Positions 272-16,386 of a stretch of 64,000 nucleotides of DNA are shown here, piece after piece. A program made the translations under genes and the position numbers. The notes under the pieces were generated by a model. It was not told the origin of the DNA, did no database searches, and saw only the letters and a program-made list of their open reading frames with translations. The stretch covers positions 32,763 to 96,762 of the forward strand of contig JAKANQ010000001.1 of the NCBI GenBank assembly GCA_021812365.1, in the 5' to 3' direction. Within the stretch, counting starts at the first letter, position 1, and every line of letters starts with the position of its first letter. The stretch is from a bacterium. GTDB lineage: Bacteria; Patescibacteriota; Minisyncoccia; UBA6257; GWB1-50-10.

Positions 272-274
272 CTA

Positions 275-958
275 TTATTTTGTATATACCGTTATCTTTG
301 CGGACATGCCATCCTTCAACTCCGGATAATCCGCCACATTAAAGCGCACCTTCACATCAAATTTTTTCACGGGTCTTTTATCGGAAATTGAGAACGTAAC
401 TCCCGTATCGTCCGATGTTTGACTCACGCTTTCCACAACCCCGACATATGTTTTATTTCCGAATGTATCGACGGTGAATGTGGCTTGCTGGCCCGGCTTA
501 ATCATTTCCAATCCCTTAGTCTCTTCAAGAGCTCCCACCACTCTCATATCTTCGGGGTGAACCATTGAAACGATTGGATTTCCGGGAGCGAAAAATGTTC
601 CAATGTTGTTTGAAGTACTTACCACGATACCGCTTTGTTTCGAAGCGACGATTTCGGTTCCCACCAATGCGACGGGAGTATTTGCGGCAATCACATCTCC
701 CTCCTTCACATAAAGCGCATTCAATGTTCCGGCAACATTTCCGGAAAGATTGATCATCGGGACATTTATTTCCGAATTTTCAATGAATACCGTTCCCGCG
801 TTCGCCTGCCAAAAAAGGAACCCACCCAACAGCAAAAAGACGGCAACCATACCTGCAATGCTTTGTATTACGGATTTGCTGAATATACCCCCCTTTTTCT
901 CGTTTTTTTCTTCCATATAATTGATTTTATTTGTGTGACACAATTTCAATAGCAGCAA
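275..958 (-). CDS. HlyD-family membrane-fusion-like protein (short; TM anchor plus lipoyl/beta-barrel region)
   Basis: 227 aa. N-terminal TM helix (IAGMVAVFLLLGGFLFW), then a VKEGDVIAANTPVALV lipoyl-like hairpin and beta-rich segments typical of periplasmic adaptor subunits. Sits between the EmrA-like ORF and the MFS gene. Confidence 0.5.
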   Translation of the reverse strand: MLLLKLCHTNKINYMEEKNEKKGGIFSKSVIQSIAGMVAVFLLLGGFLFWQANAGTVFIENSEINVPMINLSGNVAGTLNALYVKEGDVIAANTPVALVGTEIVASKQSGIVVSTSNNIGTFFAPGNPIVSMVHPEDMRVVGALEETKGLEMIKPGQQATFTVDTFGNKTYVGVVESVSQTSDDTGVTFSISDKRPVKKFDVKVRFNVADYPELKDGMSAKITVYTK

Positions 959-2087: not shown

Positions 2088-2225
2088 CTAGAGCTAGAAC
2101 CGACCAGGTTCAAGCCCTGTAAAGCGGATTTGAACTAATTTTAACCTATTTCACGACGCATCTCGAGCGCTCCATATTTTCTAGAAAGTGACAAAAGTGA
2201 CACAAGAATGGGACTTTAGTGCGTC

Positions 2226-2648
2226 CTAGTATCTTCGTAATCCAGTTTTATCCAATATTACCCGAACAGTTAAATAGCAAGCGGGATAAAGGATTACGGT
2301 ACCTGTGATGGTAAGCCAATTACTGGCGAAAACATCCGATCCCCAAATTAAACCAATAACAAAAAGGATTCCAAAATAAAGATAGTTGTATAGCACGCTA
2401 CCCAACATTCCCCAACGACCCAATACGGCTCTAACCGCTGCGATAATAAGTATCACCGCGAGTACCACGATAATTGATAACCAATGTGCCGACAGAAACG
2501 ACAACAAGGCATTCCACAACATGCGATATGCCTGCTTCGTTCCCTCATCAATAGCATTAAAAAACGCATCAAGCGTTTTCTTTGTAAACTCGGTTCCTGT
2601 CGCTGTGCTAGTAGAGTTCATTTTTGAGATTAAAACACATGACCCCAA
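2226..2648 (-). CDS. small polytopic membrane protein (3 predicted TM helices), last gene of the TIR operon
   Basis: 140 aa. Soluble N-terminus of about 50 aa, then three hydrophobic helices. Overlaps the upstream TIR-like gene by 19 nt, indicating translational coupling. Confidence 0.5.
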   Translation of the reverse strand: MGSCVLISKMNSTSTATGTEFTKKTLDAFFNAIDEGTKQAYRMLWNALLSFLSAHWLSIIVVLAVILIIAAVRAVLGRWGMLGSVLYNYLYFGILFVIGLIWGSDVFASNWLTITGTVILYPACYLTVRVILDKTGLRRY

Positions 2649-3181
2649 CTTAAATAAGTATCCTTGGAATAATAAGATAAGCCGCTTTTGGGAAGTTTAT
2701 TGAAATCAAATTGTGAAACTGCATCTGCTATTGGCTCTTTTTTGAAAGGTACATGAATAACCATAGCGGTTTTATTATTAATACGTTCAGTGAGAGCCTT
2801 TGGCCAAAGAGAAGATAAGGCGACAGGATCCATAATTCTTTCATAACCCGTGTATGCCGCAATGATTGGCATTTTACAGTTATCTACAGCGTGAGCTATT
2901 TCAAATGGAATCCAGTCTGTGTCTAGACGAGTCGTCGGACCGATAATCAATAGAAGATGTTTTGAATTATTCATCCTTTCTCTGAGCGCACGCCTCAAAG
3001 TTTCTTTGGTGCTTGAATCTCTAACATCACGTTTTTCGTGACTGTTTATAAATTTAAAATCTCCATCTTCATCTCTCACTTTCCACATTCGGAGCGTATT
3101 GTAATACTTCATGTCCGAATCTGTTGGATCTGAAGTATTGTTAGCATGAAATGCTACATATGTGCCGTTTCTATAGTTCAT
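2630..3181 (-). CDS. TIR-like domain protein (DUF1863/ThsB-type)
   Basis: 183 aa. N-terminal TYVAFHANNTSD matches the TIR betaA-type F-x-S-[FY]-x-x-D pattern. A central hydrophobic strand HLLLIIGPTT is followed by DWIPFEIAHAV, a W-x-x-FE motif with a candidate catalytic Glu. Overall layout resembles Thoeris ThsB as I recall it. Confidence 0.55.
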   Translation of the reverse strand: MNYRNGTYVAFHANNTSDPTDSDMKYYNTLRMWKVRDEDGDFKFINSHEKRDVRDSSTKETLRRALRERMNNSKHLLLIIGPTTRLDTDWIPFEIAHAVDNCKMPIIAAYTGYERIMDPVALSSLWPKALTERINNKTAMVIHVPFKKEPIADAVSQFDFNKLPKSGLSYYSKDTYLSWGHVF

Positions 3182-3183
3182 AG

Positions 3184-3786
3184 TTATTTCTCCTTTTGTT
3201 TTTTGTGGATCATTATCAGATATAAAATAATTGAGATCGAGAGAAGAATAAAAATAATTACATTAAGAAACGAACTGAGCGACAATCCGCTAATACAAGC
3301 GGCTTTAATTTCCCCGTATATTTTCGTAGCACTTATAGCAAGCAAGAGTAATGGGAAAATTATCGTATAAAGTGTCCACATCCAATCAGAAAAGATTGGG
3401 TATCGATCAAGATATGATTTTCCCTCTCGCGTAATGATGTCCTCGCCAGACTCCTTGTTTAGAGACTCCTCGATTTTATGGACGTAGGAATATTGTCTTT
3501 CAACAAAAACGGCTACTTGAAAATAGCGGATTGTGAAGATAAGCAAAAGAAACCATGCAATATTCCCTATAATAGCTAGATCTAATTTAAGATTTAAGCC
3601 AAATTTAAAATTTAAAAAATCATTAACTACAACATCGGATGTAATTGGAGAAATTATTTGAAAGGCCAAAAAACCAAGAGCGAGGACGACAAAAATCATT
3701 AAGCGATCACGCCTTTTCACACTCTCATTAATAATTGCACAAGTGTCTTTATAGTGATCGTAAATTATTGATATTTTTTCAGACAT
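3184..3786 (-). CDS. polytopic membrane protein (4 predicted TM helices), no recognisable soluble domain
   Basis: 200 aa. TM helices near LMIFVVLALGFLAFQII, LAIIGNIAWFLLLIFTI, TLYTIIFPLLLLAISA and FLNVIIFILLSISIILYLIMI. Sits between two TIR-like genes, with 2 nt and 8 nt junctions. Confidence 0.5.
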   Translation of the reverse strand: MSEKISIIYDHYKDTCAIINESVKRRDRLMIFVVLALGFLAFQIISPITSDVVVNDFLNFKFGLNLKLDLAIIGNIAWFLLLIFTIRYFQVAVFVERQYSYVHKIEESLNKESGEDIITREGKSYLDRYPIFSDWMWTLYTIIFPLLLLAISATKIYGEIKAACISGLSLSSFLNVIIFILLSISIILYLIMIHKKQKEK

Positions 3787-4234
3787 ACCTACGAATAAAC
3801 TGGTTGGGATAAGGGGCTTCGTCGAGAGCCTTTAGTATGTTTGCTTCTGTAAACGAATATACCCAAGCGGCCCTTGATCCTAAAAGTTCTTCAGGAGATT
3901 CAAACGTTCTATCTAATTTAACTGCTGCGATTCGCTTACCAAGATCAATACTTTGCCGCACTTCGAAGTTTATCCAATTTTTATATCCAATGAGGCCACG
4001 ATTTCTGTGTGGGGAGTTTGCATGTTCACCAACAATCACGAGTGTATGAGTAGCATCTTTTATCTTGGATGTAAGCGCCGCCTTTATTCTTCCGACATTT
4101 GAGCTATTAATTTCTTCTGGAGTAGCATCGTCAAATACAAATTTGAACTTTGGATTTTCATTCCAAGCTTCGAGTAGGTATTTATAATGCTTGTCGTTGT
4201 CGTAATCAAAACTGACAAATACTGAAGGTTTCAT
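3779..4234 (-). CDS. TIR-like domain protein (DUF1863/MTH538-type), second copy
   Basis: 151 aa. SVFVSFDYDNDKHYKYLLEAW is a classic TIR-like N-terminus. THTLVIVGEHANS is followed by NWINFEVRQSI, the same W-x-x-FE motif seen in the 183-aa paralog. Confidence 0.55.
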   Translation of the reverse strand: MKPSVFVSFDYDNDKHYKYLLEAWNENPKFKFVFDDATPEEINSSNVGRIKAALTSKIKDATHTLVIVGEHANSPHRNRGLIGYKNWINFEVRQSIDLGKRIAAVKLDRTFESPEELLGSRAAWVYSFTEANILKALDEAPYPNQFIRRYV

Positions 4235-4245
4235 TTTGTGTTTGT

Positions 4246-4485
4246 TTAATTTTTCCTATCTTTCGGCGGATTCGGATCCTTGCCGTAGCTATCTTTATCA
4301 CTGATTTTGCCATCCTTGTTGTGAATGACATGCTCAACTCCTGCTTTTTTAGCTTCGCGAATAGATTTTTCTTCGGCAGTTTCTTTAGTGTGAGAAGAAG
4401 AAACAGGTTTTTGCTGACCCTCTTTCTTGGTTTCCCACATACCACGGTCGGAGTTATAAACCGTATGAATGTTCTTTTTTGACAT
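4246..4485 (-). CDS. DUF2188-family small protein
   Basis: 79 aa. HTVYNSDRGMWETKKEG ... ELVIHNKDGKISDKDSYGKDPNPPKD matches the DUF2188 signature (hVvP..GWavk..G ... IHg.DG.I.d..SYG.DP.PP.D). Confidence 0.55.
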   Translation of the reverse strand: MSKKNIHTVYNSDRGMWETKKEGQQKPVSSSHTKETAEEKSIREAKKAGVEHVIHNKDGKISDKDSYGKDPNPPKDRKN

Positions 4486-4487
4486 GG

Positions 4488-5147
4488 TTAACTTGATTTT
4501 GGTTTTTTAATTACGTCTACGACCTTTCCGCTGATCTGAAAATCATCTCCTCTGTGAACGAATATAGGCATGAATGTTTCGGTGGATTCAGACTCAAGCA
4601 CAATCTGATCGTGTTCTTTATCTTCCTTGTAGCGTTTAATGGTGCCCATGCCGTCGATAACCGCCACCACGATATCTCCATTTTTAGGATTCTTGTAGGT
4701 GCTATCAACCACGACAAAATCACCATCCTCAATGGTTGGACCATCGGGACGTACCTTCGCCAAATTCATAGACAGACCATCTGCAACGAGAACAAAGAGG
4801 TCCTGCTTCTTACGGGGTAGCATTTTAGCGGAAACCTTGAGGTATCCCTCTGTTCGACTTTCCGCGAATATGGTTGCTGGCCCGCAATTTGCAGCTCCCA
4901 CGATAGGAAGGGAGTAGAACAGGCTCTTAGCGGCTGATTTAAGGTTAAAGCCCCTGCTTACGGGCTTTATAACGCCCTTATCGAGGTTAACCTGCAATAA
5001 CCCAGCTTTTCCCAGCTGGATCAGGTGGTGTTTCACGATCTGGGGCTTGTTTTCCACCCCGATGAGTTTAGCGATTTGGCGATAGCTCAAAGACTCCAAA
5101 TTTTGATGTTTTGAGAGGTTTAATATTGCGGCCTGGATTTTATGCAT
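4488..5147 (-). CDS. LexA/cI-like S24-family transcriptional repressor (HTH plus autopeptidase)
   Basis: 219 aa. N-terminal HTH (LSYRQIAKLIGV). C-terminal S24 fold with the Ser in VADGLSMN and the Lys in GTIKRYK. An internal GPA cleavage-site candidate is present. First gene of the minus-strand operon; divergent from a plus-strand promoter. Confidence 0.65.
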   Translation of the reverse strand: MHKIQAAILNLSKHQNLESLSYRQIAKLIGVENKPQIVKHHLIQLGKAGLLQVNLDKGVIKPVSRGFNLKSAAKSLFYSLPIVGAANCGPATIFAESRTEGYLKVSAKMLPRKKQDLFVLVADGLSMNLAKVRPDGPTIEDGDFVVVDSTYKNPKNGDIVVAVIDGMGTIKRYKEDKEHDQIVLESESTETFMPIFVHRGDDFQISGKVVDVIKKPKSS

Positions 5148-5153
5148 GCCTTA

Positions 5154-5182
5154 ATATTAGCATACTTTTTGGCTGTTTGCAA
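5154..5182 (-). promoter_or_regulatory. candidate sigma70-type promoter (TTGCAA, 17 nt spacer, TAATAT) about 6 nt upstream of the repressor ATG; implies a leaderless mRNA
   Basis: On the minus strand: TTGCAAacagccaaaaagtatgcTAATATtaaggcATG. Confidence 0.35.
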
Positions 5183-5209
5183 GCTCGTCCGTAAATAAGT
5201 TTTACACGG

Positions 5210-5237
5210 TTGACACTATCTCGGGTGGTTATATAAT
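5210..5237 (+). promoter_or_regulatory. sigma70-like promoter (TTGACA, 16 nt spacer, TATAAT) for the small zinc-ribbon gene, divergent from the repressor
   Basis: TTGACActatctcgggtggttaTATAATggaactATG. A nearby inverted repeat GTAAAtaagtTTTAC (5191-5205) may be an operator. Confidence 0.5.
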
Positions 5238-5243
5238 GGAACT

Positions 5244-5528
5244 ATGTCCATGCAAAAGGTCGGTGAAAATCGGTTTCTGTATCGTTGCCCTAAATGTGAT
5301 ATGCCTATGCTGGAAAAGGTGGGGTCTAAACTTCTCCTTTTGCAACACTACAAGGGGCAGCGTGTTAAAACCGAGATAGAACGGGATTTGATAGCTCCCA
5401 CCAACAAGCTCACTATTCGGTGCGGCTCATGTAAAGAAGGAGCACAAACGTTTCTTCACTTCACAGAAATAATCAGAATGGGAGAATCCACTTCGGCGAA
5501 AGTAGTTGAGGTAGGTAGCGTGGTATAA
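5244..5528 (+). CDS. small zinc-ribbon protein (CxxC ... CxxC), cro/regulator-like position
   Basis: 94 aa. Cys pairs at YRCPKCDMP and IRCGSCKEG. Lies immediately downstream of a near-consensus promoter. Confidence 0.45.
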   Translation: MSMQKVGENRFLYRCPKCDMPMLEKVGSKLLLLQHYKGQRVKTEIERDLIAPTNKLTIRCGSCKEGAQTFLHFTEIIRMGESTSAKVVEVGSVV

Positions 5529-5561
5529 TAGGAGCGTAGGTTAACAATTTAACAGAGCATC

Positions 5562-5625
5562 GTCTGGAACGCCCAGACATTCATCTATACCAAATGGTAT
5601 GGGTGCGTGTCTGGGCGTTTTTTGT
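5562..5625 (+). terminator. rho-independent terminator with an alternative upstream hairpin (attenuator-like)
   Basis: acgcccagaca (5569-5579) can pair either with upstream gtctgg (5562-5567) or with downstream tgtctgggcgt (5608-5618), which is followed by TTTTTT. Lies in the leader of the ParB-MTase gene. Confidence 0.5.
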
Positions 5626-5683
5626 TTATCGAGTAAAGGTCGACGGTAAACATTCAAACGCCTCAACAAAAATAAACAAAAAC

Positions 5684-6976
5684 ATGAAACATCTAACTTG
5701 GCACAATGAAATAAGGAAAGTTAAGGACCTCATTCCCTGTGGTTCCAACCCACGCGTTATATCAGATAAAGAGCTTCGGGATCTTAAAAAAAGTATTAAG
5801 CGTTCAGGATATGCGGAGATTATCGCAATTGATGTTGATGGGGAAATTGTTGCAGGTAATCAGAGGCATCGCGCTCTTATGGAAATGGGTATGGGTGACA
5901 CAGAGGTAGATGTCCGGGCTCCGAGCCGTAAGCTCACAAAAGAAGAGTTCGATCGCTACCTTATAGCAAGCAACGCGCTTGGTGGCACTTGGGATTTTGA
6001 GAAGCTTAAATCGTTCAATCTCGATGAATTGATCGACATTGGATTCGATAAAAAAGAACTGGAGAATATTTGGACCGAAAATCTTGAGGTTGAAGATGAT
6101 GATTTTAACGAAACCGCTGAACTTAAAAAGATAAAGATTGCCAAAACCAAGCGCGGTGATTTAATCGCGCTTGGTCCTCATAAGCTTCTTTGCGGGGATT
6201 CTACCAAGCCTGAAACGCTCAAGCGGTTATTCGGGAAAGAACGCGCTTCTGTAATTTATAGCGACCCCGTTTATAATCTCCGTGGTGGTGTTGATTACAA
6301 CAAGGGCATCGGCGGCCGCGCAAATTATGGTGGCCATGTAAACGACACCCGCACCGACGATGAATACCGGGATTTTATTCGGAAAAGTCTTGAGTGCGCC
6401 CTTTCCGTGACTAAAGAAGATGCCCATGTCTTCTATTGGAACGACGAATCGAATATTTGGTTAATCCAAACCCTTTACCGTGAGCTAGGAATAGCGAACA
6501 AGCGCGTTTGTTTGTGGCTCAAGAACGGACAGAACCCGACTCCTGGCGTTGCATTCAATAAGTGCTATGAGCCATGCATTTACGGGGTTCGCGGAAAGCC
6601 ATATATCTCAAAGAACTTGCAGAACCTGAACGAGGTGATGAATAAGGAAATCACGACTGGCAACAGTCTCCTTGAAGAAACGCTTGATCACTTGGATGTG
6701 TGGATGGTAAGGCGTCTTTCTGGCAAAAGTTATGAACACGCCACGAGTAAACCAACCAAGCTTCACGAAAAAGCAATTCGGAGATGTACCTGTCCGGGTG
6801 AAATTATCTTGGATAGCTTTCTAGGCTCTGGCAGCACGTTAATCGCGGCCGAACAATTGAAGCGTCGCGTCTATGCCATCGAACTTGAGCCTATCTTCTG
6901 TGATCTTGCAATTAAACGGTATGAACGGCTCAGCGGGAAAAAGGCAAAAGTAATCCACCACTATGAAGAAGAATAA
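5684..6976 (+). CDS. ParB-like nuclease domain fused to a beta-class N4/N6 DNA methyltransferase (phage-type)
   Basis: N-terminal ParB/Srx-like domain (EIIAIDVDGEIVAGNQRHRA). MTase motif IV variant SDPVY and motif I LDSFLGSGST in IV-then-I order. The track ORF starts at 5594, but that extension crosses the terminator, so the Met at 5684 is the likely start. Confidence 0.6.
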   Translation: MKHLTWHNEIRKVKDLIPCGSNPRVISDKELRDLKKSIKRSGYAEIIAIDVDGEIVAGNQRHRALMEMGMGDTEVDVRAPSRKLTKEEFDRYLIASNALGGTWDFEKLKSFNLDELIDIGFDKKELENIWTENLEVEDDDFNETAELKKIKIAKTKRGDLIALGPHKLLCGDSTKPETLKRLFGKERASVIYSDPVYNLRGGVDYNKGIGGRANYGGHVNDTRTDDEYRDFIRKSLECALSVTKEDAHVFYWNDESNIWLIQTLYRELGIANKRVCLWLKNGQNPTPGVAFNKCYEPCIYGVRGKPYISKNLQNLNEVMNKEITTGNSLLEETLDHLDVWMVRRLSGKSYEHATSKPTKLHEKAIRRCTCPGEIILDSFLGSGSTLIAAEQLKRRVYAIELEPIFCDLAIKRYERLSGKKAKVIHHYEEE

Positions 6977-7364
6977 AAAGCAAAGTGAATTTTTGGAGCA
7001 ACTCAAGAAGATTCCTATTGTTTCCGTAGCTGCGGAGAAAACCGGCCTCTCGCGCAACAGTATCTATCGTTGGAAGCGGGATGATAAGGAATTTGAGAAG
7101 ACCATGGAAGATGCTCTCGCAGAGGGCGAAGCCCTTATTAACGATATGAGTGAGAGCCAACTACTCTCGTTCATCAAGGATAAGAGTTGGCAAGCGGTGT
7201 CATTTTGGTTGCGTCACAGAAACCCGAAGTTCCGCGAGCGCGTGGAAGTAACGGCGAAAATTGAAAATATTGAGTCGCTCACGCCAGAACAAGAAGATAT
7301 TGTTCGGAAAGCATTAGAGCTTGAATCGCAGGAAAAAGAATTACCAAAAGAGATACAAGTATGA
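6963..7364 (+). CDS. phage terminase small subunit-like HTH protein
   Basis: 133 aa. HTH (TGLSRNSIYRWKRDD). Overlaps the upstream ParB-MTase gene by 14 nt. Its stop overlaps the start of the large-subunit gene (ATGA). Confidence 0.5.
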   Translation: MKKNKKQSEFLEQLKKIPIVSVAAEKTGLSRNSIYRWKRDDKEFEKTMEDALAEGEALINDMSESQLLSFIKDKSWQAVSFWLRHRNPKFRERVEVTAKIENIESLTPEQEDIVRKALELESQEKELPKEIQV

Positions 7365-8800
7365 ACCAAGACAAAATCCCACAAGATGTTGTGGATGCCA
7401 TGGTGAAGGATAGGAAGATACGGATCACAATAATCAAAAAAAGCTTTTGGTACTTTTTCCACTTCTACCTTCCTCACTACATAAGATACAAAACCGCGCC
7501 GTTCCACCGCGAAATGTTTTCGATTGCGGAGAATGAATCTGTGAAAACGGTAGTTATCGAGGCGTTCAGGAATTCCGCAAAAACAACCATCATGACGCTC
7601 GCATATCCAATTTGGGCTATCATTGGCTGTCAGCAAAAGAAGTTCATCGTCATTCTCGCGCAGACTCAGCAACAGGCACGCCAAATCCTCTCAAACATAA
7701 AACGTGAGATGGAATCTAATATGTTATTGCGCGCAGACTTGGGGCCATTCGAAGAGCCAGACGATGAATGGCGTGCGGTATCTTTGGTGATTCCACGATA
7801 CGGAGCGCGTATTACGGTCGCCTCCATAGACCAATCCGTGCGTGGATTGCGGCACGGCCCCTATCGGCCCGATCTCATTATTTGCGACGACTTAGAAGAC
7901 TTGGATTCCGTGAGGAGCCGCGATATGCGCGACAAGCTCTACGAATGGCTTGTGGGCGATATTATCCCCTTAGGAGATGTGAATACCAGGTTGATTGTCG
8001 TAGGTACGCGGCTCCACGAAGATTCACTCATTATGCGTCTTCGTAAGCTGATTAGTGAGAAAAGAGTAAATGGAATTGCGCGTACCTATCCGCTCATAGA
8101 CGGGCAAGGAAATATTGCGTGGCCTGGGAAATATCCCAATGAGGAAACGATTGAAAAAGAAAAGCAACGTGTGGGCGATGAACGCGCATGGCGCAGAGAG
8201 TATTGTTTGGAAATCGTGGGCGACACCGATCAGGTAATAGACCAAACATGGATTCATTACTACGACAATCTTCCGATTAAGAAGGGTGCATACATCACGC
8301 TTACCGCAATCGACCTCGCTATTTCCGAGTCAAATCGCGCTGACTATACCGCCATGGTTACTGCAAATATATACATCATAGATGGCCAGATTTACGTCTA
8401 TATTCTTGAGCCAATCGTGAACGAACGGCTCACATATCCGGATATACTGGAGCGCGCACAAATCGTCTATTCCGCTTTCCACAAAAGCGGAGGGGTCATT
8501 ATCGTTGAGGATGTAGGTTTCCAAAAGTCTCTCGTGCAAGATCTTGAAGCTATGGGATACAACGCAGTCTCGTTTAAACCGGGCGGTGCAGATAAGCGTA
8601 TGCGTCTATCCCTTACGGCGGGAATGGTAAAATCTGGCCATGTGTTATTTCCGCGAAAGGGTGCGGAACTTCTCATTGATCAGATTGTTCATTTAGGGCA
8701 AGAGAAGCACGACGATTTGGCGGACGCCTTTTCCATGTTGGTAATAAAATCGGAAACATACCGACCATATACAGCGAGTGATTTTGTCGTTCTCGTTTAA
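7361..8800 (+). CDS. phage terminase large subunit
   Basis: 479 aa. Walker A-like FRNSAKTT and Walker B LIICDDLED. C-terminal RNaseH-like nuclease region with acidic residues (TAIDLA, HDDLADAF). Confidence 0.65.
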   Translation: MNQDKIPQDVVDAMVKDRKIRITIIKKSFWYFFHFYLPHYIRYKTAPFHREMFSIAENESVKTVVIEAFRNSAKTTIMTLAYPIWAIIGCQQKKFIVILAQTQQQARQILSNIKREMESNMLLRADLGPFEEPDDEWRAVSLVIPRYGARITVASIDQSVRGLRHGPYRPDLIICDDLEDLDSVRSRDMRDKLYEWLVGDIIPLGDVNTRLIVVGTRLHEDSLIMRLRKLISEKRVNGIARTYPLIDGQGNIAWPGKYPNEETIEKEKQRVGDERAWRREYCLEIVGDTDQVIDQTWIHYYDNLPIKKGAYITLTAIDLAISESNRADYTAMVTANIYIIDGQIYVYILEPIVNERLTYPDILERAQIVYSAFHKSGGVIIVEDVGFQKSLVQDLEAMGYNAVSFKPGGADKRMRLSLTAGMVKSGHVLFPRKGAELLIDQIVHLGQEKHDDLADAFSMLVIKSETYRPYTASDFVVLV

Positions 8801-8814
8801 CTGCTGGCATTAAA

Positions 8815-8850
8815 ACAAAACCACCGATATGTTCGGTGGCTTTGTTTTGG
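8815..8850. terminator. bidirectional hairpin terminator between the terminase gene and the convergent membrane-protein gene
   Basis: acaaaaccaccga / tcggtggctttgt arms with a 5 nt loop, flanked by A-run and T-run. Confidence 0.6.
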
Positions 8851-8855
8851 TGTTT

Positions 8856-9494
8856 TTACCGATAGTCTTCAACAATCATCGTATAAGTGCCGATTGTATT
8901 GGCATCAATGTAGTATTCTCCAGCACCGTACTCAATCGTTTCATCCTTCACCGGACCCATTACATTCATAATCGCTCCGGCTAGTATTTTACCTTTGTAC
9001 AAAAATGCCTGACAAAAATCTCCGGTACAGTCATAACGAATCCGAAAACGCGAACCCGTTATAGTAAAGGGTTCAGATTTCTTCGCGCCGTTTCCGGAAA
9101 AGGTAAAGATTTGTTGGTACGATTTTCCGGGTTGAACCGCAACTGGTTGCGTACGTTCGGGGCTTGTCGGTTGCTGATTATTAACGGTCTTACTCGCCTC
9201 GGGTGACGGCGTATTGTTCTGAGAAATCTCCGCGCCACCGTTCTTCGCTATGAAGACCCCGGCCAAAATAACCAGAATTATAATCGCCAAGATTCTAACC
9301 CCACTCGACAACTCATGCTTAATCCTACCCTCAATGATTTTGTTTATCGGCGGAATCGAAATTGTCGAGGCAACAATAAAGAGAAACCCAGCAAGTGTGT
9401 TGCTTGCTATATTAGCGATTCCCGTAATGAGCAGTATCACGCCAACCAACCATCCAAGAATCAAACCAACGGTTATTTTTTTGTTTTCGTTCAT
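8856..9494 (-). CDS. membrane protein (2 TM helices, Pro/Gln-rich linker, C-terminal beta-rich domain), unknown function
   Basis: 212 aa. Two N-terminal helices, then a low-complexity linker NNTPSPEASKTVNNQQPTSPERTQP, then a Cys-containing C-terminal domain. Confidence 0.45.
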   Translation of the reverse strand: MNENKKITVGLILGWLVGVILLITGIANIASNTLAGFLFIVASTISIPPINKIIEGRIKHELSSGVRILAIIILVILAGVFIAKNGGAEISQNNTPSPEASKTVNNQQPTSPERTQPVAVQPGKSYQQIFTFSGNGAKKSEPFTITGSRFRIRYDCTGDFCQAFLYKGKILAGAIMNVMGPVKDETIEYGAGEYYIDANTIGTYTMIVEDYR

Positions 9495-9528
9495 ATGTTT
9501 TTAGTTGAGTCTTGTTCGACCTTGAAGT

Positions 9529-9700
9529 GCTGGCTAGAAACACAAAGCTGCTAGCCAGCGGTCCCTTGCGGAACCCATACTCCTTTCGGAATATGACCAT
9601 CCCTGGTGTTCTGACTAGCAGCTCTCTACCAGGGATGGATTTAGAACCGTGCCGCCGGATTACTCCGATGGGTTAGGTTCCGCCTTACAGCTAGTAAGGC
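9529..9700. other. cluster of three strong inverted repeats (hairpins) without U-tracts; candidate structured RNA or recombination/packaging site
   Basis: 9529-9537/9551-9559 (9 bp stem); 9597-9607/9628-9638 (11 bp perfect stem); 9682-9688/9694-9700 (7 bp stem). Between the first two, the minus strand shows small GNRA-looped hairpins (TTCC-GCAA-GGGA and TCC-GAAA-GGA). Confidence 0.45.
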
Positions 9701-9844
9701 TATTCAGTTGTAAATTGATTTTAACGCATTTCGACCTTTGATTCTATACCCCTATCACAAACCATTGTTTTTGCTAAGCCGGACCATCGACACGTTGTCG
9801 ACAACTTAGCTTTACTTCCCCGACCAGTCTGTCATCCATTAAAT

Positions 9845-11164
9845 ATGGATAAAGAACAAAGGACAGGACTTATCGGCAATCCAGCTGTAGTTCCTATAAT
9901 AAAGGTCAGATATTGCTTATATGCTAGAAAGTCGACCGAACAGGACGAGAAACAAGCCCTTTCGATAGACTCACAGATAAAAGAAATGCTAGCCATCGCT
10001 GAACGCGATGAATTGGAAATAGTCGATATTCGCAGAGAAGCTCATTCAGCTAAAGATTCGGGGCAGAGACTAGTGTTCAAGGAATTATTAGAGGATATAC
10101 GACGAGGGAGATATAACGGAATTCTTACCTGGGCACCCGATCGGTTAAGCAGAAACGCAGGAGATTTAGGAAGTGTGGTTGATCTAATGGATCAAAAATC
10201 GCTTATCGAAATTCGGACTTATGGTCAACAATTCAGAAATTCTCCAAATGAAAAGTTCTTACTAATGATTTTATGCAGTCAGGCAAAACTGGAGAACGAC
10301 AATAAAAGTATCAATGTAAAACGTGGATTAAAGACAAGAGTTGAAATGGGTTTATGGCCAGCCCCAGCTCCAACGGGATATTTAAAAGAAAAGCGGATGG
10401 ATAGAAAATGTGAAACTCTTATTGACCCAGCCAGAGCGCCAGTCATCAAACAGGTGTTTGAAAAAGTTGCTTATGAAAAATGGAGTGGTCGGAAAGTTTA
10501 TAACTGGCTCAAATTCGATCTTAACTTTAAGACGGCTACTGGGAACAAGAATCTCACATTAGGGAATGTGTATATGATTCTTCAAAATCATTTCTATTAT
10601 GGAACTTTTGAATATCCTAAAAATAGCGGCAATTGGTATAAAGGAAAACATGAGCCGATCATAACTAAGGAACTGTTTGATGCGGTTCAAAACCAGGTCA
10701 AAAGCCAATTCATACGATCCGAGAGTAAGGAATTTGCTTTTACTAAATTAATGACCTGCGGCCTATGTGGATCAGGCATAACGGCCGATGAGAAGTTCAA
10801 AAAGCAGAAAAATGGGAATGTTCACCGTCACGTTTACTACGGGTGTACGAAAGTACGAGATAGAGATTGTAAATGTGGGTATATCAACGAGGTTGACCTC
10901 CTAAAACAATTTGAGAAACTTATTGAAAAAATAGATATCGACGAAATCGGAATCAAGGAGAAAATCAAAACTGAGGTTGAGCGGTTTAAGAAATTTCAGC
11001 AAGTAGTTCTCGGATCTAAGAAAAAGATTGTAGTTGCCGATATAGACATAAGAAATTATGCGAAGTACATCCTTAGGGAAAGCAAGGATATAGAGAAAAG
11101 AGAACTTCTAGGATGCCTTAGAAGTAAGATTATTTTAAATAATAAGCAAATCACCATTTCTTAA
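9845..11164 (+). CDS. large serine recombinase (resolvase/invertase catalytic domain, recombinase domain, zinc ribbon)
   Basis: 439 aa. Catalytic YARKSTEQ with the Ser nucleophile, then a recombinase domain, then a C-terminal Cys cluster CGLCGS ... CKCGY. Confidence 0.7.
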   Translation: MDKEQRTGLIGNPAVVPIIKVRYCLYARKSTEQDEKQALSIDSQIKEMLAIAERDELEIVDIRREAHSAKDSGQRLVFKELLEDIRRGRYNGILTWAPDRLSRNAGDLGSVVDLMDQKSLIEIRTYGQQFRNSPNEKFLLMILCSQAKLENDNKSINVKRGLKTRVEMGLWPAPAPTGYLKEKRMDRKCETLIDPARAPVIKQVFEKVAYEKWSGRKVYNWLKFDLNFKTATGNKNLTLGNVYMILQNHFYYGTFEYPKNSGNWYKGKHEPIITKELFDAVQNQVKSQFIRSESKEFAFTKLMTCGLCGSGITADEKFKKQKNGNVHRHVYYGCTKVRDRDCKCGYINEVDLLKQFEKLIEKIDIDEIGIKEKIKTEVERFKKFQQVVLGSKKKIVVADIDIRNYAKYILRESKDIEKRELLGCLRSKIILNNKQITIS

Positions 11165-11243
11165 TGAACTACTCTCTTGCGGTATCAAAAAAATCATTGA
11201 ATTTAAGGGGTCTACTGAGCTTTCCCGGGGACGAATTGAATAG

Positions 11244-11249
11244 TATAAT
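11244..11249 (+). promoter_or_regulatory. TATAAT -10 element 8 nt upstream of the MTase ATG (leaderless-type start)
   Basis: agTATAATcaaacaaaATG. No convincing -35. Confidence 0.3.
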
Positions 11250-11257
11250 CAAACAAA

Positions 11258-14200
11258 ATGTCGGACACATTACTTAAAGTAGTTCCAAAACAGCGGAAAT
11301 ACTATCAGGATAAAGCTAATAGCCTGAGGCTACTTGCGGCAAAAGAATTGAGAGATGCCTTTTTGGCCTCCTATGATGAGGATATCTCTCGAAAAACTGT
11401 TTCCGAGTCTTGTTTGGCTGAGTATATTGATACCTTTCCCGATCAAGACTCAGTAAAAACTTTTGCCTTTAATCTTTTAATAAACAATAAAGCTATAGAC
11501 GACTTACTGAAGGGATATGATCCGATAGAAATATCATATGTTGGCTCTTATATAGGAGAGGCAACCTACAGATCCTTTATCAGTCCAACTGATATTTCTC
11601 GAGTAATGGATTTCTTGGCACCATCAAAGGCTATTGGGTATTTTTTCACACCACCGGAGGTAGCATTCTTAATGGCCGATAAAATAATATCTTCTACTGA
11701 CAAAAGTATTGATATCCTAGATCCGAGTGCTGGATACGGTTCGCTATTAGTCGCGTCCTTAATAGTAGCAAAGAATAAAGGGGCAAAATTTAGTTCTGTA
11801 ACCGCAATTGAAGTTGATTCATTTACCTCAAAGAATTTAAAAAAGATTCTTGAAAGAGTTGTCGAGCTATTAGAATTTGATACAAAGCTAAATATTATCA
11901 ATGAAAATGCCATAGGATATTTAGCCAATAGTTTAAACGGTTTATTCGGTCGCCCTGCAAGATTTCAAAAAATCATAATGAATCCACCCTATGGGAGGGT
12001 GAAGTTTTTGAAAAACTTTTTAACAAACAAAGAAACTAGAACCTCTAGCGCTTTATTATCTCACGAAGAACAAGGGATAAAAATAAAAACAAAAGTAGAA
12101 AAGCTAACAAGAGAATTAGATATCATTTCACAAAAGCTCGGTTTCGATTCCAACGTAAGAGAGTACTCGAAATTATTTGTTGCATTAAGCCTCTCAAACT
12201 TAGCTCCCGACGGCCGGATGAGCGTGATTACCCCAAGTACTTGGCTTGGTGATGTTGAGTCGTATGACTTAAGGAAATTAATCATTAACAACTCATACCT
12301 AGAGCAAATTTTACTTTTCCCTGAAGACAGCGGCTTATTCGAAACCGTGAATCAACACACGGCAGTCAGTATCTTGTCTAAACAAGAAAAGGAAATGTTC
12401 GAGATTGTATCCGATTACAATTTGAATGTAAAATTTAGCAGGTCAAACAAGGTTTACTACGCCGATATTAAAAAAAATAATCCACAGGGATTAAAAATCC
12501 CGAAGCATGGCTCGGAGCATGATGAAATCATTTCCAAAATTCAACAACATAAACCGATCCGGCTAATTGAAAACTTAAAGAACCTTAGGGGAGAAATAGA
12601 TCTCTCCTTAAACAAGGATCTAGTATCCAACAAAGACACTGGCCGTCGATTAATCAGAGGCGATCACGTGGAAAGGTACATACTGCATCCGACGACAAAA
12701 TCTAAACGAGATGGATTCATTGAAGAAAGTAGGCTTGGCGAGAAGTTTCGATCACTTCCTAAATTTAAAGATAGTTTAAATTTCAGAATTGTTGGACGCC
12801 AAGTTTCTTACTTAGATAAAAAGAGGCGCTTAGATTTTTGCCTTATTGATCCTGATAGTTTTGTGAGTAATTCTTGCAACTACCTTTACTTTAAGTCTGA
12901 CGACGGCCAAAAAAAACCGAGCAGAAAGTTACTATCTTTATTGGGGATATTAAATAGCTCTGTTCTTGAATGGTATTTCAGGCTTTACAATAGCAACAAC
13001 CATGTCGCTAACTACGAGATAGCAAATTTTCCAGTCTGCTTAGATAGTGAATTTATTCCGCTAATAGCGAAATCTACGGAATTTCTTATCGGGGCATATA
13101 AAGAAGAATCACGGGATGAATCTGTTTCTGGCATAGAAGATTTCCACGATGCCTTGGTTGGCGTGGCGTATGATCTTACGCCAATAATGATCGGTACTAT
13201 TATGGAGTCAATTGACCCCAAAAGAAAAGGTAGGGTTGTAAATTTTGCGGAACACATATGTGAAGGTAATCTACCTCTCGATTTTATGAAGAGCGATCAT
13301 TGGTTTAATCATTATGTCTCAACGCTGTCTGATTTAGACCAAGAGATAATTAAACATGTTCCCCAAGGAGGAAATTGGCAAGATATTCCCGAGGAAGTTC
13401 CTTCTCAAAGGCTACGGCAGATACGTGAAATGTCGAAAGAGCGCGGTGTTGTGCGAACTACCTATTATGGAAGACTAAGACCGGATCAACCATCATATAC
13501 CATTGCTACGTACTATAATCGTCCCGGTAATGGAACAAACATTCATCCATGGGAAGACAGGACGATTTCTTCGCGTGAAGCGGCAAGACTCCAATCTTTT
13601 CCCGATAGTTATATTTTCTTTGGATCTGAAGGCGGTATTAGAACTCAGATAGGAAATGCCGTCCCTCCGCTACTTGCTTATTCATTGGGAAAGCATATCG
13701 GAAGCCGCTATGGCTTTGGCACCTGCGTTGACGCCTTTGCCGGTGCCGGTGGTCTAAGTTGTGGATTAGAGCTTGCTGGCTGGAAAGTGATTGCGGCTAA
13801 CGACAATGATAAACACGCCTCAATAACTTACCGGGCGAATAGGCCCACGGAAAAGACGCCGACTAGTGATGACAAAAAGACTTTCTTTGTAGAGGGAGAT
13901 ATTAACAATAAGAAAATTTGGGAAGAACTTTTATCAGGAATCAAAAAGAAGCTCGGCAATAAAGAATTAGATCTGCTAGTAGGTGGCCCACCGTGCCAAG
14001 GGTTTTCCCACGCTGGATTCAGAAGAGAGGATGATATACGCAACGACCTAGCCTCTATATATTTGAAGCTAGCAATTAAGCTAAGTCCTAAGACCTTTAT
14101 TCTTGAAAATGTAGAGGGACTTCTCACATACAATTCCGGACAGGTAGTAAAGGATATCATTGAGGCTTTGACGGATATCGGCTATCACGTTGAAGCTCCA

Positions 14201-16082: not shown

Positions 16083-16150
16083 AACCGAAATATGCCACTT
16101 TTTAGGTGTTTTTACAATGTTGTTTTTGTTTTATCAAGAACACCAAAAAG

Positions 16151-16180
16151 AAAAACCACTGAAATTTATCAGTGGTTTTT
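16151..16180. terminator. bidirectional rho-independent terminator
   Basis: aaaaaccactga / tcagtggttttt arms around a 6 nt loop, with A-run and T-run flanks. Confidence 0.6.
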
Positions 16181-16338: not shown

Positions 16339-16386
16339 GTCGCTCGCGCAGTGAGGAAATAAATACATGAACATTTCTATGCATTG

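What the first reader, a model, noticed from the sequence alone, without database searches (positions are those of the whole stretch)
5684..8800. Phage packaging and antirestriction genes without any structural genes: satellite-like or decayed prophage
The ParB-nuclease/MTase fusion is a common phage anti-restriction or partition-type protein. Terminase small and large subunits are translationally coupled to it. The window contains no portal, capsid, tail or lysis genes. The block is flanked by a cI-like repressor and a large serine recombinase. This architecture fits a phage satellite that hijacks helper capsids, or a heavily eroded prophage whose remaining genes are under selection.
Basis: partly seen in the sequence, partly recalled or inferred. 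Interest (0 to 1): 0.5.

Follow-up and report, generated by a model that had tools for sequence, protein, structure and literature searches.

The report
Terminase-only mobile island in Patescibacteria
The flagged genes belong to a 17.6-kb mobile island, one of at least 170 related islands mostly in tiny "candidate phyla" bacteria, that keeps a phage's DNA-packaging enzyme and integration genes but no capsid or tail genes, so it most likely spreads by borrowing another phage's capsids while carrying anti-phage defence genes.

Summary
Window 5684-8800 encodes a ParB-like/N6-N4 methyltransferase fusion, a small terminase and a large terminase with overlapping reading frames. A LexA-type repressor and a large serine recombinase (LSR) flank them. 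No portal, capsid, tail or lysis gene occurs in the 64 kb.

It is not a randomly eroded prophage. The same core (ParB-MTase, TerS, TerL, variable cargo, LSR) recurs in 170 non-redundant loci, mostly Patescibacteria MAGs. Their TerLs form one clade. More distant TerLs sit in ordinary phages next to a portal gene.

The islands end at a tRNA gene; three have clean 15-21-nt tRNA-end direct repeats. A close relative of the host (LepA 99% identical) lacks the island. This bounds it at 17.6 kb, with the left end 1.27 kb before the window.

Also found: a conserved long hairpin terminator gating the packaging operon, an Rfam LOOT RNA heading the cargo slot, and defence cargo (ThsB, type II R-M, Sie-like).

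The best reading is a previously undescribed terminase-carrying, phage-satellite-like island family. Helper dependence and packaging are inferred, not shown. I found no description in the searchable literature.

The parts
1..16329 (.). Part of the island that lies inside the window. The whole island is 17.6 kb, and its left end lies about 1,265 nt before window base 1.
   Evidence: Island-free relative L258. Homology L258 8901-9472 = L094 771-1344 and L258 9641-10098 = L094 18940-19397, where L094 coordinate = window + 2610.
275..2087 (-). Left-end cargo: two adjacent HlyD/YknX-type membrane-fusion genes (plus an MFS pump gene running off the window start).
   Evidence: Pfam HlyD_3, HlyD_D23, Biotin_lipoyl_2. 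Gene calls in L094. Absent from the empty site.
2226..4234 (-). Defence-like cargo: unknown 131/140-aa gene, ThsB-TIR (2630-3181), unknown 171/200-aa gene, ThsB-TIR (3779-4234).
   Evidence: PF08937 7e-16 and 7e-11. PADLOC ThsB 1.3e-62 and 2.3e-14. Homologues of the two ThsB genes and the 200-aa gene recur upstream of ParB-MTase in L181, and the latter two in L243.
4246..4485 (-). DUF2188 small protein, co-oriented with and adjacent to the repressor.
   Evidence: PF09954 9e-14. PADLOC PDC-S16 4e-23. The DUF2188 + S24 pair recurs in L027, L089, L189.
4488..5147 (-). LexA/cI-type self-cleaving repressor (S24 peptidase domain).
   Evidence: PF00717 9.5e-22; phrog_4. Ser (DGLSM) and Lys (TIKRY) are present. 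Homologues lie upstream of the core in 27 of 134 loci.
5210..5237 (+). Perfect sigma-70 consensus promoter (TTGACA-16-TATAAT), divergent from the repressor gene.
   Evidence: Only 12/12 match in 2000-16700.
5244..5528 (+). orf94, a small zinc-ribbon-like protein (CPKC...CGSC), first gene after the promoter; function unknown.
   Evidence: No significant Pfam or PHROG hit: only a sub-threshold zinc-ribbon match, E 0.007, below the Pfam cut-off. Sequence read. Homologues in L071, L098, L214.
5567..5628 (+). Very long hairpin followed by a T-run: intrinsic terminator between orf94 and the packaging operon.
   Evidence: -43.9 kcal/mol, z = -7.3. Equivalent hairpin + T-run (dG <= -18) in 66 of 136 family loci versus 12 of 136 controls. 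Compensatory changes in basal pairs.
5684..6976 (+). ParB_N-like domain fused to a beta-class N6/N4 DNA methyltransferase.
   Evidence: PF01555 3.4e-26; phrog_498 9e-84; phrog_620 5.5e-25. Motifs GNQRHRA, DPVY, FLGSGS. Present upstream of TerL in 133 of 134 family loci.
6963..7364 (+). Small terminase subunit (HTH type).
   Evidence: phrog_4044 5.4e-12 and three other TerS PHROGs. Overlaps both neighbours.
7361..8800 (+). Large terminase subunit (ATPase + RNase H-like nuclease).
   Evidence: phrog_38 7e-81. AF2 pLDDT 82.5; Foldseek top hits are PhiV-1, T4 gp17, D6E, HK97 and Sf6 terminases. Walker A/B and nuclease acidic residues are conserved in at least 97% of 89 family sequences.
8856..9494 (-). 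212-aa membrane-anchored protein, first gene of the TerL-to-LSR cargo slot; candidate superinfection-exclusion protein.
   Evidence: No Pfam hit itself. phmmer and cluster links to a 28-member family whose representative matches tRNA_anti-like OB fold plus zinc ribbon and phrog_8545 'Sie-like'.
9560..9679 (-). LOOT RNA (Rfam RF03000), 66 nt upstream of the 212-aa gene.
   Evidence: 87.8 bits versus gathering 46.4, full length. Own model R1: 62 hits in 59 of 172 family loci and 0 in 40 phage-type loci.
9845..11164 (+). Large serine recombinase (integrase).
   Evidence: Resolvase + Recombinase + Zn_ribbon_recom. phrog_95 1.4e-61. YARKST motif. Same-strand LSR downstream of TerL in 69 of 85 loci with at least 9 kb of flank.
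11258..16082 (.). Type II (Alw26I/BsmAI-like) restriction-modification cargo between the LSR and the tRNA: fused N6A + C5 methyltransferase (11258-14521, +) and REase (14502-16082, -).
   Evidence: PF00145 3e-62, PF02384, PF09665 3e-92. PADLOC MTase_II 1e-296, REase_II 2e-174.
16252..16338 (-). Right end of the island: conserved ~34-nt flank 'F' abutting a 53-nt copy of the 3' part of tRNA-Gln. Homology with the island-free genome resumes at 16330.
   Evidence: The same flank abuts the intact tRNA-Gln in L181, L016, L015, L189, L218.
16386..16457 (-). tRNA-Gln(UUG), with its 3' end pointing toward the island. It sits in a 184-nt segment (16339-16522) with its own promoter, followed by a 21-nt 5' tRNA fragment (16523-16543).
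   Evidence: ARAGORN. Rfam tRNA 61.3 bits. Repeats. Promoter at 16514-16485. The same structure is present in the island-free relative.

Best explanation
The flagged genes are the core of a tRNA-integrating island mobilised by a large serine recombinase. The island belongs to a large, apparently undescribed family found mainly in Patescibacteria (candidate phyla radiation bacteria). The family looks like a temperate phage that has kept only three things. The first is its lysogeny switch: a LexA-type repressor, a divergent strong promoter and the LSR. The second is its DNA-packaging initiation and motor module: ParB-MTase, TerS and TerL. The third is a set of cargo slots filled mostly with defence genes. 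Replication, capsid, tail and lysis genes are absent.

The most likely mechanism is phage-satellite-like. The repressor silences the element. On induction or helper infection, transcription must read through a conserved long terminator to express ParB-MTase, TerS and TerL. The LSR excises the element, or packaging starts in situ. The element's own terminase then recognises its DNA and pumps it into procapsids supplied by a co-infecting or co-resident tailed phage.

Shown here: the gene identities; family-wide conservation and absence of structural genes; intact TerL, LSR and repressor catalytic motifs; the tRNA-end location; presence/absence polymorphism between close relatives; the conserved terminator; and the LOOT RNA.

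Inferred: induction, read-through, excision, use of helper capsids, and transfer.
For: Gene identities. TerL fold.

Conserved synteny: in 170 non-redundant loci with TerL at least 42% identical to the window's, ParB-MTase lies upstream in 133 of 134. An LSR lies downstream in 69 of 85 loci with at least 9 kb of flank. In 42 phage-type loci the LSR count is 1 of 32.

Phage-type relatives (TerL at most 41% identical) have PF04860 portal genes right after TerL.

No structural homologues in the family: 272 post-TerL phage proteins were searched against all six-frame ORFs of 2.48 Mb of family loci. They found only LSR, HsdR and five non-structural hits.

Genes that follow TerL on the same strand in family loci are R-M, Gabija-like, efflux or metal-ATPase cargo, not structural genes.

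Island TerLs form one clade. TerL, LSR and ParB-MTase distances co-vary (Mantel r = 0.44 and 0.34, p = 0.001). ATPase and nuclease residues are conserved in at least 97% of sequences.

The first tRNA downstream of the LSR is on the opposite strand in 37 of 37 loci. Ten lie 82-241 nt from the LSR stop, and about 0.7 would be expected within 300 nt. Flanking 15-21-nt tRNA-end direct repeats bound islands of 15-18 kb in L189, L247 and L056.

An island-free close relative exists (LepA 99% identical).

A perfect promoter is followed by a -43.9 kcal/mol terminator ahead of the operon. The hairpin is conserved across the family.

Tandem copies occur (L118/L119, L056, L066).
Against: No helper phage, capsid association, circular form or attP junction was observed. 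No contig has terminal repeats.

No replication gene is recognisable, which is unusual for known satellites.

In this particular genome the left junction has no tRNA-derived repeat, and 168 nt of the empty site are missing. This copy may therefore be unable to excise precisely.

Known satellites that carry TerL (cfPICI) also carry capsid genes, so a TerL-only satellite has no experimentally validated precedent that I could find.

Structural genes elsewhere in the same genomes could not be excluded, because only 10-kb flanks could be fetched.
Confidence: 0.6

Rival explanations
1. Defective prophage remnant: an ordinary temperate phage integrated here and lost its replication, structural and lysis genes by deletion. 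The terminase genes are leftovers, decaying or retained by chance.
For: The gene order corresponds to a temperate phage map with two modules missing. This copy lacks a recognisable left att repeat.
Against: The same reduced architecture recurs in 170 non-redundant loci across many Patescibacteria lineages. TerLs are monophyletic, full-length ORFs have conserved catalytic residues, and the LSR co-varies. Independent decay would not repeatedly stop at the same gene set. Some copies have only about 5.6 kb between the first operon gene and the tRNA (L045).
Confidence: 0.05
2. Mobile defence island whose terminase module is itself a weapon or a housekeeping function of the element. ParB-MTase, TerS and TerL would interfere with, or cleave, the DNA of infecting phages, or would process the element's own DNA. 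The island would spread by other routes such as natural transformation or generalised transduction, not by self-directed packaging.
For: All three cargo slots are rich in defence genes: ThsB, PDC-S16, type I/II/III R-M, Gabija-like, Sie-like. No helper was identified. Patescibacteria are thought to rely on DNA uptake (my background knowledge, not tested).
Against: A complete, catalytically intact TerS + TerL pair behind a phage-style repressor, promoter and terminator switch is what a packaging-competent element needs. I found no precedent for a terminase holoenzyme acting as a defence effector.
Confidence: 0.15
3. In-situ packaging (lateral-transduction-like) device. The island seldom excises. 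Its terminase starts headful packaging at a pac site inside the integrated island and drives the downstream cargo slot and adjacent host DNA into helper capsids.
For: There is no replication module. The closest deposited phage TerLs are Mu-like; those phages package by the headful mechanism, which is background knowledge and was not tested here. The cargo slot lies immediately downstream of TerL in the direction of transcription. This copy lacks a left att repeat yet keeps intact genes. Lateral transduction by phages and PICIs is reported to mobilise defence genes (abstract of PMC12829572).
Against: The conserved LSR and clean att repeats in other members argue that excision and integration are the normal lifestyle. 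The packaging direction and pac site are unknown.
Confidence: 0.12
4. A complete but unrecognisable virus: the capsid and tail proteins are among the unannotated ORFs.
For: Several ORFs have no family hit: the 131/140-aa, 171/200-aa, orf94 and 212-aa genes, and the variable first gene of the operon in other loci.
Against: Too few and too small unknown genes. The most compact loci have only one unannotated gene plus ParB-MTase, TerS, TerL and the LSR ahead of the tRNA (L045). The unknown genes are variable between members, not core.
Confidence: 0.03

Closest known systems
PICI / SaPI-type phage-inducible chromosomal islands
   Same: Integrated island with an integrase, a repressor-controlled divergent switch, its own small terminase, accessory and defence cargo, and no tail or lysis genes. 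The core definition is in PMC10085698.
   Different: It uses a large serine rather than a tyrosine integrase. No primase-replicase or capsid-morphogenesis gene was detected. It carries its own large terminase and a ParB-MTase. Its hosts are Patescibacteria.
Capsid-forming PICIs (cfPICI)
   Same: The satellite carries both TerS and TerL (PMC10085698).
   Different: cfPICIs are defined by capsid, portal, protease and head-tail adaptor/connector genes. None of these is present in the window or in 2.48 Mb of family loci.
PLE of Vibrio cholerae
   Same: A satellite that uses a large serine recombinase and depends on helper virion parts (abstracts of PMC9638900 and PMC11417361).
   Different: From my own knowledge, not tested here: PLEs have their own replication genes and rely on the helper's terminase rather than encoding TerL. 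No sequence relation was seen.
Temperate tailed phages with a ParB-like gene followed by TerL, portal and Mu-F-type head genes (IMG/VR contigs L126, L127; Mu-like Pseudomonas phages LPB1/JBD30)
   Same: TerL of the same broad family: 36-39% identity for L126/L127 and 27% for deposited Mu-like phages. A ParB-like gene lies upstream of the terminase.
   Different: These carry portal, Mu-F, protease and further structural genes directly after TerL. The island has cargo and an LSR there instead.
tRNA-targeting genomic islands and tycheposon-like elements
   Same: Insertion next to the 3' end of a tRNA gene, short tRNA-end direct repeats, cargo hotspots and tandem accretion. The tycheposon comparison is from memory and was not checked.
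   Different: The recombinase here is a large serine recombinase, not the usual tyrosine integrase. A terminase module is the conserved core.

Membership tests
Large terminase subunit (TerL) of tailed phages | N-terminal ASCE ATPase with Walker A/B plus C-terminal RNase H-like nuclease with acidic catalytic residues | tested here: met
   phrog_38 7e-81, Terminase_6C. AF2 model matches T4 gp17, D6E, HK97, Sf6 and PhiV-1 terminases in both domains. R70/S72/K74/T76, D176/D177/E179/D180, D318, D411 and D451/D452/D455 are conserved in at least 97% of 89 sequences.
Large serine recombinase (phage-type serine integrase) | Resolvase catalytic domain with nucleophilic Ser, plus Recombinase domain and zinc-ribbon domain | tested here: met
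   PF00239 1.4e-19, PF07508 2.6e-14, PF13408 5.6e-08. YARKST motif.
Large serine recombinase (phage-type serine integrase) | Recombination at defined attP/attB sites with a 2-bp crossover | tested here: inconclusive
   The islands end at tRNA genes, with 15-21-nt tRNA-end repeats in L189, L247 and L056. In the window, two tRNA-Gln fragments overlap by exactly 2 nt, but they flank a 184-nt segment that predates the island. The crossover was not mapped.
Intact temperate tailed prophage | Portal, major capsid, tail and lysis genes in the same element | tested here: not met
   None in the window, on the contig to the left, or in 170 family loci.
PICI | Integrase + regulator + small terminase, and no tail or holin genes | tested here: met
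   LSR, S24 repressor and TerS are present; there are no structural or lysis genes. The integrase is serine-type rather than the usual tyrosine-type.
PICI | Primase-replicase module | tested here: not met
   No primase, helicase-primase or Rep domain in any island gene by Pfam or PHROGs. The variable first operon gene remains unannotated.
PICI | Induction and packaging by a helper phage | not testable with these tools
   Requires experiments or virion-fraction sequencing.
cfPICI | Own TerL | tested here: met
cfPICI | Own capsid, portal, protease and head-tail adaptor/connector genes | tested here: not met
Gene transfer agent | Host-regulated head-tail structural gene cluster that packages random host DNA | tested here: not met
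   There is no structural cluster in the window or in the loci. The element is an insertion polymorphism with its own integrase. Remote structural loci in the same genomes were not searchable.
LOOT RNA (Rfam RF03000) | Score above the family's gathering threshold with the full consensus structure | tested here: met
   87.8 bits versus 46.4, model positions 1-121 of 121. Compensatory changes are visible in the alignment of 11 family copies.
Thoeris defence system | ThsB (TIR) together with a ThsA effector | tested here: inconclusive
   Two ThsB genes (PADLOC 1.3e-62 and 2.3e-14). No ThsA model matched the neighbouring 140-aa and 200-aa proteins.

The most novel reading that the evidence does not exclude
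These islands would be a new class of phage satellite, and the first proposed for Patescibacteria. They carry a complete terminase (TerS + TerL, with a ParB-MTase) but no capsid or replication genes, and they integrate at tRNA genes with a serine recombinase. They keep the packaging operon locked behind a conserved long terminator that a helper phage's late-gene antiterminator, or the small first-gene product, opens. The orphan LOOT RNA would be the conserved leader of their cargo slot for defence and exclusion genes. Packaging could start in situ and move neighbouring defence genes between these ultra-small bacteria.
Probability: 0.35. Interest if true: 0.8.

Novelty: new variant of a known kind. 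Interest (0 to 1): 0.68.

Why it matters
Patescibacteria are a large part of bacterial diversity, but very little is known about their mobile elements or how they exchange genes.

If the reading holds, it adds a widespread, easily recognisable island family that moves restriction-modification, Thoeris-like, Gabija-like and exclusion genes.

It would extend the satellite concept to an element that brings its own packaging motor but no shell.

It gives a serine-recombinase/tRNA att system with predictable sites.

It places an orphan Rfam RNA (LOOT) and a conserved regulatory hairpin in a defined genetic context, where their function can be tested.

It also warns that TerL-based virus detection will mislabel these islands as (pro)viruses: 28 IMG/VR 'viral' contigs in this sample are islands of this type.

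Tried and rejected
- **Circular or excised forms.** No terminal direct repeats in any of 257 fetched loci.
- **Left att site in the window's island.** No second copy of the tRNA-Gln 3' end, even with 3 mismatches. No second copy of the conserved flank F.
- **Exact-protein look-up of the response regulator.** It returned only island-bearing contigs. The empty site was found only through a 90%-cluster member.
- **History of the tRNA-Gln fragments.** I tried to explain the 53-nt and 21-nt fragments as the island's own attL/attR. I rejected this because the island-free relative has the same 184-nt tRNA cassette and 5' fragment. The history of that cassette stays unexplained.
- **Same-strand gene runs after TerL in L024, L053, L063, L064, L072 and L109.** I suspected structural modules. 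They are R-M, Gabija-like, efflux and metal-ATPase genes.
- **Marginal phmmer hits to phage post-TerL proteins.** They are UDP-glucose dehydrogenase, glycosyltransferase, formyltransferase and HNH proteins.
- **PDB sequence search with TerL.** No hit; only the fold search worked.
- **Pattern scan of IMG/VR for further LOOT copies.** One hit inside an ORF, a false positive.
- **Literature.** Nine full-text searches found no description of this architecture or of LOOT biology. The Weinberg 2017 supplement is not held.
- **MAFFT-based consensus folding of the upstream hairpins.** It recovered only the five basal pairs, because the three sequence subfamilies do not align.


Full report
**1. The observation**

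Window 5684-8800 encodes three co-oriented genes.
- A ParB_N-like domain fused to an N6/N4 DNA methyltransferase: PF01555 3.4e-26, phrog_498 9e-84, ParB PHROGs down to 5.5e-25.
- A 133-aa small terminase: phrog_4044 5.4e-12 plus three other TerS PHROGs.
- A 479-aa large terminase: phrog_38 7e-81, Terminase_6C.

The reading frames overlap by 14 nt and by ATGA. An AlphaFold model of TerL (pLDDT 82.5) matches only phage large terminases at the top of a PDB fold search. The hits are PhiV-1, T4 gp17, D6E, HK97 and Sf6, and they cover both the ATPase and the nuclease domain.

A LexA-type S24 repressor lies upstream on the other strand (4488-5147). A large serine recombinase with all three hallmark domains lies downstream (9845-11164). 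Both have their catalytic motifs.

The rest of the window (16.7-64 kb) is housekeeping. It holds two-component genes, transporters, HisRS, LepA, ribosomal protein L19, thymidylate kinase, ClpP, SOD and glycosyltransferases.

**2. The host and the limits of the island**

LepA from the window is 87% identical to a Candidatus Jorgensenbacteria MAG protein, and all named relatives are Patescibacteria. The window lies on a 102-kb contig whose left continuation carries an MFS pump gene, a 159-aa gene and dnaX.

A member of the 90% cluster of the neighbouring response regulator led to three contigs from a very close relative (L258-L260; LepA 99% identical). In these, the 159-aa gene is followed directly by a 536-nt spacer with tRNA-Gln and then the response regulator.

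Flank homology breaks right after the stop codon of the 159-aa gene. It resumes inside a tRNA-Gln fragment at window 16330. The island is therefore 17.6 kb, running from about 1,265 nt before window base 1 to 16329.

The MFS/HlyD-type efflux genes at the left edge and the type II restriction-modification system between the recombinase and the tRNA are both island cargo.

**3. A conserved family, not a wreck**

The closest TerL homologues (58-66% identity) lie in the same arrangement. Variable minus-strand cargo comes first, then ParB-MTase, TerS and TerL, then more variable cargo, then a large serine recombinase, then host genes.

Scans of GTDB genomes, IMG/VR and JGI metagenomes with a TerL alignment gave 240 loci. 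Together with 17 loci from exact-protein look-ups, 257 were analysed. After removing duplicates, 170 loci have a TerL at least 42% identical to the window's.
- 133 of the 134 with enough upstream sequence have ParB-MTase directly upstream, often followed by a second ~258-aa methyltransferase.
- 69 of the 85 with at least 9 kb downstream have a same-strand LSR. The median TerL-to-LSR gap is 925 nt, and 43 of 110 gaps are 200 nt or less.
- 27 have an S24 repressor upstream.

The GTDB record titles are overwhelmingly Patescibacteria: Paceibacteria, Saccharibacteria, Peregrinibacteria, Moranbacteria, Roizmanbacteria, Woesebacteria, Berkelbacteria and others. A few MAGs carry other automatic labels, which I did not verify.

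In contrast, the 42 loci with TerL at most 41% identical look like ordinary phages. TerL is followed by a same-strand run of genes starting with a 450-740-aa protein. Two of these were checked and are PF04860 portal proteins, one fused to Mu-F, and one locus also has an S78 prohead protease. Only 1 of 32 such loci has an LSR downstream.

In a neighbour-joining tree, the common ancestor of all 154 island-type TerLs contains 154 island-type sequences, 17 unclassified sequences and 2 crudely labelled phage-type sequences. The other 31 of 33 phage-type sequences lie outside it.

**4. Absence of structural genes across the family**

I searched 272 proteins encoded after TerL in the phage-type loci against every six-frame ORF of at least 60 aa in the 170 island loci (2.48 Mb). 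The only matches were:
- LSR and HsdR, both from two misclassified island loci;
- five weak hits that turned out to be UDP-glucose dehydrogenase, glycosyltransferase, formyltransferase and HNH proteins.

Clusters of portal-sized and capsid-sized proteins from the phage-type loci have no member in island loci.

Where island loci do have same-strand genes after TerL, they are cargo:
- an EcoRI-type methylase;
- GmrSD/HNH;
- AAA_15/OLD-TOPRIM plus a UvrD helicase (Gabija-like);
- DUF2779;
- type I HsdM/S/R;
- MFS/HlyD/MacB pumps;
- metal P-type ATPases.

A PADLOC scan of 133 cargo proteins from the TerL-to-LSR interval found type I, II, IIG and III R-M components, mad2 and PglX-like proteins.

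**5. Signs that the core is functional and inherited as a unit**

In 89 family TerLs, three groups of residues are at least 97% conserved:
- the Walker A-like residues R70, S72, K74 and T76;
- the Walker B block D176, D177, E179 and D180;
- the nuclease acidic residues D318, D411, D451, D452 and D455.

Pairwise distances of TerL, LSR and ParB-MTase are correlated (Mantel r = 0.44 and 0.34, p = 0.001). Mean pairwise identity is about 51%, 52% and 44% respectively, so this is an old, diversified lineage rather than recent copies.

**6. Integration at tRNA genes**

In all 37 loci where a tRNA is found downstream of the LSR, it is on the opposite strand, with its 3' end toward the island. The tRNAs are Gln (15), Ser (10), Glu (6) and others. 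In ten loci the tRNA lies only 82-241 nt from the LSR stop codon. At the local tRNA density, about 0.7 would be expected within 300 nt.

Three loci show clean direct repeats of the tRNA's 3'-terminal 15-21 nt, 15-18 kb apart, enclosing the whole island (L189, L247, L056).

In the tRNA-Gln subgroup, a conserved ~33-nt flank with an internal dyad abuts the tRNA 3' end. In the window, this flank abuts a 53-nt partial tRNA-Gln copy at 16286-16338, which marks the island's right end.

Just to the right lies a 184-nt segment. It holds an intact tRNA-Gln with its own promoter, followed by a 21-nt 5' fragment. The partial copies overlap by exactly 2 nt. This structure is also present in the island-free relative, so it predates the island and remains unexplained.

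The window's island has no recognisable left repeat, and 168 nt of the empty site are missing. This copy may not be able to excise cleanly. Tandem islands occur elsewhere (L118/L119 on one contig, L056, L066).

**7. Regulatory anatomy**

Divergent from the repressor gene is the only perfect sigma-70 consensus promoter in the island (5210-5237). It is followed by a 94-aa zinc-ribbon-like ORF of unknown function.

Next comes a 24-bp-stem hairpin with a T-run (-43.9 kcal/mol, z = -7.3). ParB-MTase starts at 5684.

A comparable long hairpin plus T-run lies just upstream of ParB-MTase in 66 of 136 family loci at dG <= -18. Only 12 of 136 control windows inside TerL score as well. Forty-seven distinct versions reach -25 kcal/mol or better and fall into at least three sequence subfamilies. 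Four of the five basal pairs that could be aligned show compensatory changes.

I read this as a conserved terminator that gates the packaging operon. Read-through by an antiterminator, whether the element's own or a helper's, is inference. A DNA-level role (pac, cos or ParB site) cannot be excluded.

**8. An orphan RNA finds a home**

Rfam's LOOT RNA (RF03000) matches window 9560-9679 on the minus strand at 87.8 bits, against a gathering score of 46.4, over its full length.

A covariance model built from 11 family copies finds 62 hits in 59 of 172 island loci and none in 40 phage-type loci. Nearly all hits are on the strand opposite to TerL, typically 0.4-1.7 kb after its stop codon.

In 56 of 63 cases, a same-strand ORF starts shortly downstream of the RNA, usually 50-90 nt from it. 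Twenty-nine of these ORFs form one family of small membrane-anchored proteins to which the window's 212-aa gene belongs. A representative of that family matches an OB-fold (tRNA_anti-like) domain, a zinc ribbon and a 'Sie-like' PHROG.

LOOT thus looks like the leader of the first gene of the cargo slot. I found no published account of its biology.

**9. Interpretation**

The circular map implied by the integrated order runs as follows: LSR, cargo, att, cargo, repressor, divergent promoter, ParB-MTase, TerS, TerL, cargo, and back to the LSR.

This is the map of a temperate phage in which the replication module is missing and the structural and lysis module has been replaced by a cargo slot. Five features together point to a phage-satellite-like lifestyle in which the island supplies the terminase and a helper supplies procapsids and tails:
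- an intact terminase holoenzyme;
- a phage-type switch;
- an integrase with defined tRNA targets;
- presence/absence polymorphism between near-identical hosts;
- heavy defence cargo.

None of the transfer steps was observed. The lack of a replication gene, and the Mu-like affinity of TerL (27% identity to deposited Mu-like phages; such phages package by the headful mechanism, from background knowledge), leave room for in-situ, lateral-transduction-like packaging. A purely defensive role of the module is less likely but not excluded.

**10. Relation to known systems and novelty**

By the published core definitions (PMC10085698):
- the island shares integrase, regulator and TerS with PICIs but lacks the primase-replicase;
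- it shares TerL with cfPICIs but lacks all their capsid and connector genes;
- it shares a serine integrase with PLEs but nothing else.

It is not an intact prophage or a GTA cluster. Nine full-text literature searches found no description of this architecture. The library is incomplete, so an existing description cannot be ruled out.

I rate it a new variant of a known kind (phage satellites and tRNA-integrating islands), of fairly high interest.

**Caveats**
- ORFs in the loci were called by a simple longest-ORF rule with genetic code 11, which fragments genes in code-25 lineages.
- Family loci were collected with TerL peptide patterns, which biases the sample toward this clade.
- Only 10-kb flanks were available.

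Noticed in passing
window 9560-9679 (-): Full-length LOOT RNA (Rfam RF03000, an orphan sRNA family), 66 nt upstream of the 212-aa membrane protein gene. An own covariance model finds it in 59 of 172 island loci and in none of 40 phage-type loci, usually 50-90 nt upstream of a small membrane-anchored (Sie-like) gene. It looks like a leader of the cargo slot.
   Followed up: partly
window 5567-5628 (+): Exceptionally long hairpin (24-bp stem, -43.9 kcal/mol) plus a T-run between a perfect consensus promoter with a small ORF and the ParB-MTase/terminase operon. Equivalent hairpins are conserved across the family in at least three sequence subfamilies, with compensatory base changes. There is no Rfam match.
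   Followed up: partly
window 16286-16543: tRNA-Gln(UUG) is accompanied by a 100%-identical 53-nt copy of its 3' part (100 nt to the left) and a 21-nt copy of its 5' part (65 nt to the right). The two fragments overlap by exactly 2 nt. It is as if a 184-nt cassette (trailer + intact tRNA + its own promoter) had been inserted into an older tRNA-Gln gene by a serine-recombinase-like 2-bp crossover. The island-free relative has the same structure, and similar 5'-fragment copies occur in L089 and L254.
   Followed up: partly
window 275-958 and 927-2087 (-), compared with 28728-30314 (-): The island's membrane-fusion protein is split into two adjacent ORFs: an N-terminal lipoyl/HlyD part and a C-terminal beta-barrel part. 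A chromosomal paralogue is a single 528-aa protein. This is either a frameshift or a genuine two-gene arrangement. Efflux pumps also occur as cargo after TerL in L053/L063.
   Followed up: no
window 2226-4485 (-): Two ThsB-type TIR genes are interleaved with two unknown small genes and have no recognisable ThsA effector. A DUF2188 gene (PADLOC candidate PDC-S16) is glued to the repressor gene. The ThsB block recurs in L181/L243, and the DUF2188-repressor pair recurs in L027, L089 and L189. This may be an unusual Thoeris-like system.
   Followed up: no
L022, L025, L039, L044, L049, L062, L069, L070, L078, L223, L245 (about 8.4-11.5 kb in each locus): Mainly Peregrinibacteria/Peribacteria versions of the island have two TerL-like ORFs in tandem (about 520-615 aa followed by about 500 aa) before the recombinase.
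   Followed up: no
L097-L124, L128, L129 (IMG/VR contigs): Twenty-eight contigs catalogued as viral in IMG/VR are islands of this type with no structural genes in the sequence available. Marker-based virus calling seems to pick them up through TerL.
   Followed up: partly
window 11258-16082: A type IIS-like R-M system with an unusual 1087-aa methyltransferase fusing an N6-adenine (Eco57I/TaqI-like) and a C5-cytosine module, convergent with an Alw26I/BsmAI-family endonuclease. The genes overlap by 20 nt.
   Followed up: no
L216 (1888-3530) and L099, L024: Rearranged family members in which the recombinase and LOOT lie upstream of ParB-MTase on the opposite strand. In L216 the repressor follows TerL. 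These could be inversions or neighbouring tandem elements.
   Followed up: no
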